Positions 4,961-51,365 of a DNA stretch of 64,000 bases are shown in pieces. The stretch is from Eledone cirrhosa (taxonomy: Eukaryota): assembly GCA_964016885.1 (NCBI GenBank), contig OZ024743.1, positions 94,364,001 through 94,428,000 on the forward strand, given 5' to 3'. The translations under genes were made by a program, and so were the position numbers. The notes below the pieces were generated by a model. The model was not told the DNA's origin. It saw nothing but the letters and a program-made list of their open reading frames with translations, and searched no databases. Every line of letters begins with the position of its first letter. Position 1 is the stretch's first letter.

Positions 4961-7900
4961 TCAGTGTGCGCAGTATCCGCGAACGCAGCGTTTTAGTTGA
5001 GGGTTGTATCTAAATCCATGACCGCAACGGAAAACGAAATATTTGCCGTAAATACATATGGCGTATCGAGAACAAACTTGCATACAAGGTTGATGTTCCA
5101 GGGCTGAACAGTAACATGTGGATGGGATTATACATGTGTTGTCGACTTTACAAACTGAAAAGAGAGAGAAAAAAAGATGTACACCAATTAGTTATATTAT
5201 AATTCATTAAGTTTACGAATAAACTGGGTAAATTTAAAGATTTGTTGTTTATTTGCTTTTAGTCGAATAAGTCGAGTAAATTTACGCTGTTTATATTTTT
5301 CCGTCTCCCCCAGTTTTATCAGATTTATTCGGTTATTTTATAGAACTTATATGAATGGTAGTTATATTCATACTGTAGTTTTATAGTTTTACTAAACATA
5401 GTTTATGGACATAGTTTAAAAAGAAAAAAATGGCACAAGCACGTGTTCATGGAGCAGAAAATATATTTTAGGGTAAAACCAACCATTTTATACATAATTA
5501 TCGTGAAATTAACGAGCGAGGGGCTTAGCATTCCGGAGATATGTATACACTTAACGTAAATCTTAGTGAGATTCAGCGTGACAAAGTGTATGTCAGTCAT
5601 GGACAAACTGTGGCTTGTGAGCCTCATGCGGCGCATTTGGCTTTCTGAATGGCATGCCTAATTCCAAACTTGCCTTGAATTTTTTAGTAGTGGGGCCTCC
5701 CTTATGATGAACCACATCCTATGTGGCCCACTGCTCGAAAAAGGTTGCCCATGCCTGGCGTATGACAAGGCTGGCCTTTTGAATTAAGGGTATAATTCAT
5801 CTGGTACGCTTTCAAACAGTTTTCACCTACCCAAATTTCTCGATCCGAGGCTATGCTAGATGACACTTGACTAAGATGCCACGCAATGGGATCGAACCTG
5901 GGGCATAATGGTTGCGAAGCGAACTTCTTAACCATTCGTCCATGTTGTGCCCATAAGGTTTTGTAAATAAGTAAATAAGGATGTTACATAAGAATGCTGG
6001 CACGGGACCGCCAGCGATGGAAGGCGCTGGGGGACATGTTCGGCTATACGCATGACGATGCTTTGGGATCGCTGGCTTAGGATGAGCCCGGACTCGTCGA
6101 GTATGAGCAAGAAGAAGAAGAAATACTTAAGAATGCCATGATTCAGAAACATTCTATAGACAAGAGAAGAGAAGGCAGCATTATTTGTCATTCTTTATGG
6201 TATATCATAGCTATGATTTTACTTTGGATTTATTTAAATATTAATTACTACTACTATAGCCATCTGAAAACATATTTGCTGTCGGATACATCAATTAACT
6301 CAACATTTGTTTATATTTTACTCTCATCATTCTTGTGTTTCGTTTCATTTAATATATACTCTTTTCAGAGACAACCTTTTGAAAGTTGACCCGAGAAGGA
6401 TCTGAACACAGGATGTGAATTAAATACATAACATTTAAAACGTCCTTTACCGCCTTTCTCACTCACCGTCCTGAATTAGTTATATATATTACTAGCAAAA
6501 CACCCCACTTCTGCCATCTTATTAGTCAATGTCTATAAATTTATGAATGATACGAACTCGCGCAGACATTTGATTGCGCGCGGCTCATTTATATATATAT
6601 ATATATATATATATATATATATAACAATGTCTGTATGTCTATCTAAGTGTCTGTCATGTAGAGACTAAATATTGTTGAATTAAATAACATATATATGTAT
6701 ATATATATATAAAGAGAGAGAGGTAGAGAGAGAGGGAGAGGTAGAGAGAGAGAGAGGTAGTGAGAGAGAGAGAGAGAGAAAGAGATGTGATTAATTGGGA
6801 AAGAAGAAAACAGTCCTAATCTATAGATGAAGAGAAGCGCTTAGTGAATGTACAGACGTAATGGTAAATTATGTAGACATATATACTACAGATTTCTATT
6901 CATATATGGTATATATAATATATATATATATATATATATATATATATATATATATATATATATATATATATATATATATATATATATATATATATATATA
7001 TATATATATATTATATATATATACCATAGACAAACATACTTATCTTTAAGGAAGAGATAAATGAAATACTTACAGAAATTACTATTACCACTGGTTCTCG
7101 ACTTTGTTGTCCATTTCCATGTTGGTAATTTTGTAGTTGTGGTTGTTGTTCTTACTGTTGTAGTTGTAAGTTGTTCAGTTGTAGTTGTAGGTTGTCTAGT
7201 TGTAGTTGTTGTTGTAGGTTGTTTAGTTGTAGTTGTTGTTGTAGGTTGTTTAGTTGTAGTTGTAGGTTGTCTAGTAGTTGTGGTTGTTGTTCTTGTTGTT
7301 GGTGTGTGTGTTGACGCTCCTGTCCAAGCTGTAGGTGTCATTGTTGTGGTTATATTGCTGGTGATAAATGGCCATCGGCTGTCATCACAGTGGAAAACAA
7401 TTGGAATATTCTGGTGCTTGACTTTCGGTCGAATCTGATTGTTATAATCCCAGACCTTCATGTAAGTATCTGCGAGGGTTTTACCGTAGAAGGCAGTGTC
7501 ACTACGAGTTAAGTTCATCAGCCCTATACATTCTGTGTATCTCGGTGGGTTGGAACCTGGAACTAAGCAAGATGGCCGGCATATTCTTCCACATTGTTCC
7601 GAAACTGTTAAAAATACCAGACTAAATTCTTTTTCGGGGTTTTTGATACCGATATAAGCTAGATCTGACGATACAGCTAATCTACGATCCACTATCACCA
7701 TTTCTTCATAATTTCCAAAATAATTGAGGCCACTAGCTTGAACATTCACTCTCCCTGCTGGTCCACAACACTTACGCATTCGACAAGTGGAATTACTAGA
7801 CGAGGAATTTTTGGATAGACTGTTGTCGTATATATCATTCAATAAGTTTGGTTGACCATTTACGATTGGGAAATTTCCAAATCTCATCGTATCGTAAGGT

Positions 7901-50000: not shown

Positions 50001-51365
50001 ATCGTAAACATTTGGTTCCATGCTCTGTAAGATAAAAGAAGAGATAAGAAACATTAAAACACAACATGGAGGGAGGCAATAACATTGTAAACATTTGATG
50101 ACATCATCTGTAAGATAAAATAAGTAACGTAAACATTAAAATCATTACAACACAAGATTTATTTTAAATTATTTGAGATGTTTTGGTTTTGATGTTTCTA
50201 AGGAAAGGGAGTCGAACATTTTAGATAAAAAACGTAAGCCTTACTTTTCATATTAAGTATTTCTGAAGTATTTTGTAAGTTGAGAGAAAGAAAGTCAGAA
50301 CGAAAGCTATAGGAAATTAACAGCCCTAGTACTGAACTCGTACTTTATTTATCGACCTCAGTAGGATGTAAGACACAGTTGACTTATTTTATATTAGAAA
50401 TATAAGCGCCAGAGAACCTAAGCGAATATCGACATCTGAACGACTTTGTCAATTCGGCATATTGTGTTAAAACAAAATTAAAATAAAAAACCCTTCTTAC
50501 TTTCTTTTATTTTTCAGATGAATTCTACGGTGAAAGATTGCGCTGCATGGCGAACTCTCCACTTTCCACTGAAACTGAGGGATCCGCAGAAAACGTACGA
50601 GGGTTCTCTAAAGAAATCTCTTTAAGCATGTCATATTGATCACCACCAGAGGTGTGATATGTCCTCTGATCAGGTGATCTGGTGACATACCATCTGTCAA
50701 TTTCCTCCTTCGAGAATGAATGGAGGACTGTTGATGAAGACAAAAGTCCGGGGAAGAAATGTAGTATGGTAACACTGAAACCAGAACAAAATTAGACATA
50801 CTCTTGCTTTAGTCGTGTTTGCCTATCTTACGTTTTTCTCGTCAGTTACCAGCGAGCCTACGATAGATGTGGACAGCCCCTTTCATAAATCTTCGTTAAC
50901 GAAGTAAAGTCATGATACTAGTTTAGTAAAATATCAAAGTCTGTCAGTACTCTGAACTTCTCTCAATAATATTCATATAAAAAAATAGAACCTTACCGTA
51001 TCTTGTTTTAGAAGATGAATACTACGGTGGAAATCATATCTTTCTTGTTCACTGAGTTGTCTATATTCCTTCCTTACTCGGAGCATTTTCAAATGATTTG
51101 GTTGTGATGTTTTTAGTTCATCGGTTGGTAGATTATAATTTAGATAGTTTGTTGTCCAATTAGGACATATTTTCGCCATTTGGAGCTGACCAACGCAATA
51201 ATTCCATATATTGGCCTTCTTTTCAATTGGTGGATTTGTCGATTTGCATACATTCTCAAAACAGTTTGGAACATAGCTACCTATTTCTGGAACATAATAC
51301 TGTATATCTGACTTCACGTAAACAAAAGCCAGCAATATGATGAATGCTAGGTACAGACGATTCAT
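47031..51365 (-). CDS. Tyrosinase-like gene 3, recent duplicate of gene 2, ~737 aa
   Basis: Coding exons 51365-50997, 50024-49912, 49466-47935, 47230-47031 (369+113+1532+200=2214 nt). Differences from gene 2: YEYNY to YDYDY, a 9-aa stalk expansion, and AKRFDPTTRR to GKRFDPITKR. Confidence 0.92.
47455..47915 (-). mobile_element. Tandem SINE cluster in the last intron of gene 3
   Basis: Counterpart of 19180-19640. Confidence 0.85.

What the first reader, a model, noticed from the sequence alone, without database searches (positions are those of the whole stretch)
4961..51365. Cluster of secreted tyrosinases with a mucin stalk and a hidden chitin-binding terminal exon
Seen: all three genes splice in phase 1 to a 194-200 nt last exon that the ORF track misses. 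It encodes a 9-Cys module ending C-x2-Y-x2-C-x2-G-x6-C-x5-[FY][ND]-x5-C, after a long Thr/Pro stalk. Established: that spacing matches the core of CBM14/peritrophin-A chitin-binding domains, and type-3 copper oxidases make quinones that cross-link protein-chitin matrices. Inference: these are enzymes tethered to chitin for local sclerotisation or tanning (beak, radula, sucker lining, egg casing) rather than ink or skin melanin enzymes. Tyrosinase-chitin-binding fusions are reported in molluscs, but this paralog cluster may be uncharacterised.
Basis: partly seen in the sequence, partly recalled or inferred. Interest (0 to 1): 0.75.

Follow-up and report, generated by a model that had tools for sequence, protein, structure and literature searches.

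The report
Octopus tyrosinase array with chitin-type tail
Sixteen neighbouring octopus genes encode tyrosinases ending in a separately spliced tail predicted to fold like a chitin-binding domain, which likely docks the enzymes on extracellular matrix for local tanning; a smaller cluster of this kind is already published and chitin binding is untested.

Summary
Three intact four-exon tyrosinase genes splice in phase 1 to a 194-200 nt last exon after a Thr-rich stalk. The module has ten cysteines, not nine. Contigs of one public run skip all three introns of gene 2 or a near-identical copy at exact GT-AG ends. The tail scores as CBM14 at about Pfam's cut-off, and its predicted fold matches CBM14 structures first. 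The three genes belong to a 523-kb array of 16 intact copies plus one pseudogene. The 208-residue middle domain has been homogenised by gene conversion between two old paralog clades. Much is known: Octopus and Argonauta protein records already contain the tail, a limpet homologue is named chitin-binding in UniRef, and a four-gene argonaut cluster with the same conversion signature, expressed in arms and mantle, is published. Chitin binding is unproven: the two best structural matches do not bind chitin, and the key chitotriosidase binding residues are missing in the window genes. Best reading: matrix-docked epithelial tanning enzymes. Moderate interest.

The parts
11427..11759 (-). Gene 1 (clade A) exon 1: hydrophobic N-terminus (predicted signal peptide), variable N-terminal region, start of catalytic domain
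   Evidence: hydropathy peak 2.27 at the N-terminus and at most 1.05 later
10846..10958 (-). Gene 1 exon 2: CuA site, His125, His134, His143
7074..8692 (-). Gene 1 exon 3: CuB site (His253, 257, 280), Cys-rich linker, middle domain (about 7989-7366), Thr-rich stalk (about 7365-7075)
   Evidence: (PF00264 E 1.4e-18)
4961..5154 (-). Gene 1 exon 4: ten-Cys CBM14-like tail
   Evidence: Pfam CBM_14 24.2 bits, cut-off 22.1
22717..23085 (-). Gene 2 (clade B) exon 1 with predicted signal peptide
   Evidence: joint 21743/22717 in X4 contigs
21631..21743 (-). Gene 2 exon 2: CuA site, His137, His146, His155
   Evidence: both flanking joints in X4 contigs
19660..21164 (-). Gene 2 exon 3: CuB site, linker, middle domain, Thr stalk (19837-19660)
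19838..20461 (-). Middle domain of no Pfam family (208 codons), gene-converted between clades A and B
   Evidence: dS 0.15-0.16 against 0.68-0.71 in the catalytic domain; trees and AU tests; no Pfam hit
18755..18954 (-). Gene 2 exon 4: ten-Cys CBM14-like tail
   Evidence: joint 18954/19660 in X4 contigs; CBM_14 21.8 bits, just under cut-off; AF2 pLDDT 85 and CBM14 matches
50997..51365 (-). Gene 3 (recent duplicate of gene 2) exon 1
49912..50024 (-). Gene 3 exon 2: CuA site
47935..49466 (-). Gene 3 exon 3: CuB site, middle domain, Thr stalk (48139-47935)
47031..47230 (-). Gene 3 exon 4: ten-Cys CBM14-like tail
   Evidence: CBM_14 23.6 bits
11933..57044 (.). Tandem segmental duplication (about 11933-29439 repeated at 37849-57044) that produced genes 2 and 3 with their flanking retroelement fragments
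   Evidence: self-BLAST pieces at 91-100% identity, gene-bearing piece 97.7% over 5631 nt

Best explanation
These are members of a 16-gene tandem array of intact tyrosinase genes whose products are predicted to be secreted and likely use a spliced ten-cysteine CBM14-fold tail on a long Thr-rich stalk to dock on an extracellular matrix, probably chitinous, and make quinones there for local cross-linking and tanning. Shown: gene structure, splicing of a clade-B copy, six copper His, copy number, and gene conversion of the middle domain between two paralog clades that predate the split from Argonauta. Predicted: signal peptide, tyrosinase fold, CBM14 fold of the tail. Inferred: O-glycosylation stiffens the stalk into a spacer, the tail holds the enzyme on the apical cuticle or mucus layer of arm and mantle epithelium (sucker lining, skin), and the recent amplification raises dosage. 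The ligand and the tissue in this species are untested.
For: Open models and canonical splice sites in 16 of 16 complete copies, each with ten tail Cys. Spliced joints in X4 contigs only. CBM_14 is the top Pfam hit in 11 of 11 tails scanned, 7 of them over the cut-off. The AF2 model of the tail has pLDDT 85 with a three-strand plus two-strand core, and ranks 1-8 of 12 VIA-align matches are CBM14-family structures, best Z 6.5, rmsd 2.1 over 48 residues. The catalytic domain matches bacterial tyrosinase at Z 25.7. The tail is under purifying selection between clades: pN 0.35 against pS 0.81 with all Cys kept. The same tyrosinase + middle domain + ten-Cys tail occurs in the limpet Patella caerulea, whose UniRef name is chitin-binding type-2 domain-containing protein. 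The argonaut cluster is expressed in arms and mantle (PMC9635652 passages). His-catechol cross-links in a chitin-protein cephalopod tissue, the squid beak, are established (PMC9999432 passages).
Against: No binding data. CBM14 scores are marginal (21.0-26.5 bits, cut-off 22.1) and cover only profile positions 13-45 of 53; in full-length orthologs the domain is below cut-off (P0001, P0002) or unreported (P0003, P0004). All structural Z values are under 8 and no Foldseek hit reaches E 0.001. The two best matches do not bind chitin. The CHIT1 Trp465 position is Pro or Arg and Pro451 is Gly in 16 of 16 copies; Leu454 is Lys/Arg in 12 of 12 clade-B copies. One domain per chain would bind weakly (CHIT1 Kd about 10 mM for chitotriose). 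Tyrosinase was absent from the argonaut eggcase proteome. No tissue data exist for this species.
Confidence: 0.55

Rival explanations
1. The tail has the CBM14 fold but binds something other than chitin (polyphenol or melanin-like product, acidic mucus glycan, or a partner protein), so the enzymes act in skin mucus or pigment rather than on a chitin scaffold.
For: The best PDB sequence match is EHEP, a molluscan polyphenol-binding protein (E 4.8e-4); the best structural matches are Der p 23 and EHEP, both reported as non-binders of chitin. The tails are basic, net +5 to +10, with no Trp, and lack the CHIT1 platform.
Against: EHEP binds tannin in a pocket formed by three domains together, which a single tail cannot form. 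Chitin-binding residues differ among true CBM14 binders, so missing CHIT1 residues do not exclude chitin. The tails carry 7-9 Tyr/Phe.
Confidence: 0.25
2. An innate-defence or wound enzyme: the tail recognises chitin on fungi, parasites or damaged cuticle and targets melanisation to it; the array expanded under pathogen pressure.
For: CBM14 serves immune recognition in CHIT1 and tachycitin (passages). Among clade-B copies the tail shows pN above pS in two distant pairs (0.083 vs 0.053; 0.073 vs 0.013; 65 codons). Arm and mantle are barrier tissues.
Against: The counts are small and untested for significance. Copies are homogenised rather than diversified (0-66 nt differences within clade B). 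Constitutive very high arm expression (TPM over 1000) of an argonaut tyrosinase contig fits a structural role better.
Confidence: 0.12
3. A latent pro-enzyme: the middle domain shields the active site, and activation cuts off the middle domain, stalk and tail, so the tail only delivers the precursor and the active enzyme is free.
For: The middle domain is predicted beta-rich, and haemocyanin units align across model residues 75-589. Trypsin activation of squid ink tyrosinase by C-terminal trimming is recalled from memory only; the paper was not held.
Against: The middle domain model has pLDDT mostly 25-70, there is no sequence match to any solved domain, and no R-x-K/R-R site lies after the catalytic domain. 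This reading is compatible with the best explanation up to the moment of activation.
Confidence: 0.1
4. The copy number is inflated by assembly error, with haplotypes or mis-joined reads counted as paralogs.
For: A2 and A3 have 0 coding differences and A1 differs by 2 nt; several B pairs differ by 5-16 nt; long blocks are 98-99.4% identical.
Against: Duplicated blocks differ by indels and have different breakpoints, gene spacing runs 11-55 kb, two copies are inverted, stalk lengths vary from 59 to 104 aa, and the 584 kb has no N. More than two distinct sequences per clade cannot be haplotypes of a diploid.
Confidence: 0.07

Closest known systems
Argonauta argo tyrosinase cluster Aargo001559-62 (PMC9635652; passages and supplement search hits read)
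   Same: Tandem secreted alpha tyrosinases in two paralog groups, near-identical in a rear region through gene conversion. A. hians proteins from one contig group with clade A (P0004) and clade B (P0003) of this array. Orthology to the A. argo genes is inferred; their sequences were not in hand.
   Different: Four genes there, 16 intact here. The passages and supplement hits seen do not mention a chitin-binding tail, and the companion preprint calls tyrosinase a single-domain enzyme.
Patella caerulea KAK6178420.1 (UniRef name: chitin-binding type-2 domain-containing protein)
   Same: Tyrosinase domain, the same middle domain and a ten-Cys tail with the identical 3,5,9,12,4 core spacing.
   Different: Short Pro-rich linker instead of a long Thr stalk; about 42-45% identity in the catalytic domain and 34-35% in the tail; a database name only.
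CBM14 / peritrophin-A domains (CHIT1, tachycitin, Avr4, Blo t 12, Der p 23, EHEP)
   Same: C-x5-C-x9-C-x12-C core spacing as in the EHEP motif and the same predicted two-sheet fold.
   Different: Four extra Cys in an N-terminal extension, only four residues before the last Cys, and no CHIT1 Trp465 or Pro451 equivalent.
Molluscan alpha-subclass tyrosinases of shell and periostracum (PMC3658974, PMC5379566; passages read)
   Same: Signal peptide, CuA and CuB sites, no transmembrane helix, lineage-specific expansion; the middle domain is shared with a clam protein and unnamed homologues.
   Different: Most homologues seen (P0007-P0010, and two other tyrosinases of this genome within the 30 kb fetched around each) lack the stalk and tail.

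Membership tests
Type-3 copper protein, alpha subclass tyrosinase | Six His ligands (CuA and CuB) | tested here: met
   CuA H-x8-H-x8-H in 16 of 16; CuB H-x3-H...H in 16 of 16
Type-3 copper protein, alpha subclass tyrosinase | PF00264 domain and tyrosinase fold | tested here: met
   Pfam E 1.4e-18 and 4.5e-15 on exon 3 alone; ortholog model Z 25.7 to B. megaterium tyrosinase
Type-3 copper protein, alpha subclass tyrosinase | N-terminal signal peptide and no transmembrane helix | tested here: met
   Hydropathy scan only (no SignalP): N-terminal peak 1.68-2.27, later maximum 1.05-1.41
Type-3 copper protein, alpha subclass tyrosinase | Monophenolase or diphenolase activity | not testable with these tools
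   Needs an enzyme assay
CBM14 / peritrophin-A domain | Pfam PF01607 score over the gathering cut-off | tested here: inconclusive
   7 of 11 isolated tails pass 22.1 bits, range 21.0-26.5, profile positions 13-45 only
CBM14 / peritrophin-A domain | Six-Cys spacing C-x15-C-x5-C-x9-C-x12-C-x5-9-C (EHEP motif) | tested here: inconclusive
   Core 5,9,12 exact; first gap 11 or 13 depending on which Cys is C1; last gap 4; four extra Cys
CBM14 / peritrophin-A domain | Fold of three plus two antiparallel strands | tested here: met
   Predicted model pLDDT 85; ranks 1-8 of 12 VIA-align rows are CBM14-family, Z 3.4-6.5
CBM14 / peritrophin-A domain | CHIT1-type chitin platform (Pro451, Leu454, Trp465) | tested here: not met
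   Gly at the Pro position and Pro/Arg at the Trp position in 16 of 16; Lys/Arg (clade B) or Phe/Tyr (clade A) at the Leu position. Not universal among binders
CBM14 / peritrophin-A domain | Binding to chitin | not testable with these tools
   Needs a pull-down or ITC; some family members do not bind
Octopod tandem alpha-tyrosinase cluster (Argonauta type) | Two old paralog groups in tandem with a converted rear region | tested here: met
   Catalytic and tail trees group by paralog, middle domain by species; AU tests reject the alternative at p 6e-6, 0.003 and 3e-4
Octopod tandem alpha-tyrosinase cluster (Argonauta type) | High expression in arms and mantle | not testable with these tools
   Only one run with spliced contigs, tissue not on record

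The most novel reading that the evidence does not exclude
Octopods keep an ancient molluscan tyrosinase with a distinct ten-cysteine CBM14 subtype whose ligand is not chitin or is bound in a new way. This lineage amplified it to 16 copies while repeated gene conversion keeps the unannotated middle domain identical across clades A and B, as expected if the two types must assemble into hetero-oligomers that tan the renewable sucker cuticle or skin surface.
Probability: 0.15. Interest if true: 0.7.

Novelty: new variant of a known kind. Interest (0 to 1): 0.42.

Why it matters
The enzyme that cures cephalopod chitin-protein materials has not been pinned down; the beak-curing model is described as not experimentally validated (PMC9999432 passage). 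A secreted tyrosinase with a built-in matrix-docking module is a direct, testable candidate. It would also reinterpret the argonaut arm tyrosinases, published as single-domain enzymes possibly recruited for the eggcase, as a shared octopod epithelial system with a gastropod homologue. A 16-copy array with conversion restricted to one domain is a clean case of concerted evolution that points to a function for an unannotated domain. If the tail does not bind chitin, it adds to the CBM14-fold proteins with other ligands.

Tried and rejected
Run search for RNA: no RNA holder listed; the four runs are of unrecorded type, from one study and at most two samples, so they are not independent and contig depth was not used as expression or copy number. 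Retrocopy as the source of the joined contigs: rejected because X1-X3 show none of the three joints (where some joints in those runs were not counted) and all 16 genomic tail hits sit in short open frames of 76-89 aa. A region search with the tail found only the two Octopus proteins (word-index limit). The ESM Atlas gave CBM_14 clusters at 0.82-0.86, below the 0.9 level and so a lead only. Middle domain: no Pfam family, no PDB sequence hit better than E 0.97, Atlas 0.76, model too poor to assign a fold; it was not folded alone. CBM_19 hits are below cut-off in all tails and were rejected. Disulfide pairing could not be read because model coordinates are not returned. A CuB regular expression failed through my own error; CuB rests. 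Earlier scan findings: three look-ups, nothing. Literature: ten searches. Subscription papers (including the bivalve tyrosinase family paper and the Illex enzyme paper), figures and preprint supplements were not seen and may bear on this.
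Full report
1. Observation. Manual models from the window give three intact minus-strand genes of four exons, with GT-AG introns in phases 0, 2 and 1. The motif occurs three times in the window and never in 100 shuffles. The stalks are 98, 60 and 69 residues and 52-61% Thr. Genes 2 and 3 differ by 11 substitutions and a 27-nt indel and lie in a tandem segmental duplication.

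2. The exon is used. Four public runs hold the gene 2 region; none is on record as RNA. Laid on 18300-24300, contigs of run X4 skip all three introns at the predicted ends, including 18954/19660, while X1-X3 cover introns and show zero depth at those joints. X4 therefore behaves as an RNA run, but its tissue is unknown and the contigs may come from any near-identical clade-B copy. Independently, annotated proteins of Octopus sinensis, O. vulgaris and Argonauta hians end in the same ten-Cys module after a Thr stalk, although their precomputed Pfam list shows only PF00264. These homologues place the genome among octopods.

3. The cluster is far larger than the window. The genome holds 16 tail exons and 17 catalytic exon-3 matches between C4:94.297 and 94.821 Mb. 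Across the 584 kb fetched, 16 of 16 complete copies have open frames, canonical splice sites, ten tail cysteines and both copper sites: four of clade A (gene 1 type) and twelve of clade B (genes 2 and 3 type), two of them inverted. The seventeenth is a pseudogene without exon 1 or tail. Two other tyrosinases elsewhere gave no tail match in the 30 kb fetched around each. A family search lists further PF00264 loci on other contigs; the multi-domain runs on C1, C26 and C27 are probably haemocyanins, which I did not test.

4. Evolution. Clades A and B are old: catalytic-domain and tail trees put clade A with A. hians P0004 and, for the catalytic domain, clade B with P0003 and the Octopus proteins (support in the tail tree is low for clade B). 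The 208-codon middle domain instead groups by species. AU tests on 13 sequences (6 of the 16 copies, 6 octopod records, the limpet) reject the species grouping for the catalytic domain (p 6e-6) and tail (p 0.003) and the paralog grouping for the middle domain (p 3e-4). Between clades dS is 0.15-0.16 in the middle domain, 0.68-0.71 in the catalytic domain and saturated in the tail. This is recurrent gene conversion, the pattern reported for the four-gene Argonauta argo cluster (PMC9635652, passages). A profile search of 1.84 billion representatives gave 164 hits, mostly multi-repeat proteins, of which the two I scanned are peritrophin-like, plus a limpet tyrosinase with the same middle domain and ten-Cys tail. 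The fusion therefore likely predates the gastropod-cephalopod split.

5. What the tail is. Pfam CBM_14 is the top hit for 11 of 11 tails scanned, 7 over cut-off, covering only the core. The AlphaFold2 model has mean pLDDT 85 from a 10-sequence alignment. Foldseek's top nine rows and VIA-align's top eight are CBM14-family structures, but no Foldseek E-value reaches 0.001 and Z is at most 6.5. The fold assignment is consistent across methods. The ligand is not settled. Der p 23 and EHEP, the two best matches, are stated not to bind chitin (PMC10619976, passages). HMMER aligns the last CHIT1 cysteine with tail Cys56; the high-impact CHIT1 residues Pro451 and Trp465 (PMC5459812, passages) then map to Gly and to Pro/Arg in all 16 copies. 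Avr4 uses other residues (PMC6128652, passages), so this lowers but does not remove the chance of chitin binding. The tails are basic and rich in Tyr/Phe.

6. Mechanism. The architecture of catalytic domain, O-glycosylation-prone stalk and terminal CBM14 is that of matrix-targeted enzymes such as family-18 chitinases (established knowledge). The most likely working is secretion, docking on apical matrix, and local quinone production that cross-links His- and Tyr-rich proteins, chemistry documented for squid beak (PMC9999432, passages). For tissue, the likely orthologs are highly expressed in arms and mantle; an argonaut tyrosinase contig exceeds TPM 1000 in arms and is zero in eye, heart and gill heart, and tyrosinase is absent from the eggcase proteome (bioRxiv 10.1101/2021.07.10.451900, passages). 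This favours sucker or skin epithelium over beak, radula or egg casing. That octopus sucker lining is chitinous is recalled, not checked here. Rivals are a non-chitin ligand (0.25), immune targeting (0.12), a processed pro-enzyme (0.10) and inflated copy number (0.07).

7. Novelty. Known: secreted molluscan tyrosinases and their expansions (PMC3658974, PMC5379566, passages), the octopod cluster with gene conversion, protein records containing the tail, and a UniRef chitin-binding name for the limpet homologue. Not found in ten searches and the passages read from 14 papers: recognition of the CBM14-like tail in cephalopod tyrosinases, the ten-Cys subtype, or a 16-copy array. Papers outside the library may cover these. 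Verdict: a real feature and a new variant of a known kind, interest 0.42.

Noticed in passing
window 57131-63026: A 2.1-kb inverted duplication at 99.7% identity (57131-59221 against 63026-60941) flanking an 820-aa open frame at 60914-58452 with no Pfam hit. Its motifs recall a Penelope-like retroelement (recalled, not tested); the intact frame suggests a young copy.
   Followed up: partly
G000:C4:94534654-94537107 (+), loci L036: Tyrosinase pseudogene: the start of exon 2 is repeated several times at an 83-bp period, exon 3 has a frameshift and a stop, and exon 1 and the tail are missing.
   Followed up: yes
tail exons of clade B, loci L001-L012: pN exceeds pS in the tail between distant clade-B copies (0.083 vs 0.053; 0.073 vs 0.013), with net charge rising from +5/6 to +9/10. 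Small counts; no significance test run.
   Followed up: partly
window 16182-17150, 25209-26135, 31731-32066 and duplicates at 44152-45129, 52740-53828: Retroelement fragments carried along in the duplicated block: weak zf-RVT (E 5.8e-4), RVT_1 (E 4.1e-6) and a PHD finger.
   Followed up: partly
proteins P0005, P0161, P0164: Public O. vulgaris and A. hians models fuse two neighbouring tyrosinase genes into one protein, and P0164 includes a translated repeat; these look like annotation errors and imply tandem arrays in those genomes too.
   Followed up: no
proteins P0045, P0127, P0130, P0135, P0136, P0006: Unnamed ORFs that carry the tail alone, apparently called from a terminal exon, and one ORF that ends where exon 3 ends; they suggest the same exon boundary in other animals. 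Their upstream exons were not traced.
   Followed up: partly
G000:C1:173.74-173.91 Mb, C26:21.93-22.02 Mb, C27:69 kb: Runs of many consecutive PF00264 domains, three blocks on C1 and two inverted blocks on C26, probably haemocyanin genes.
   Followed up: no
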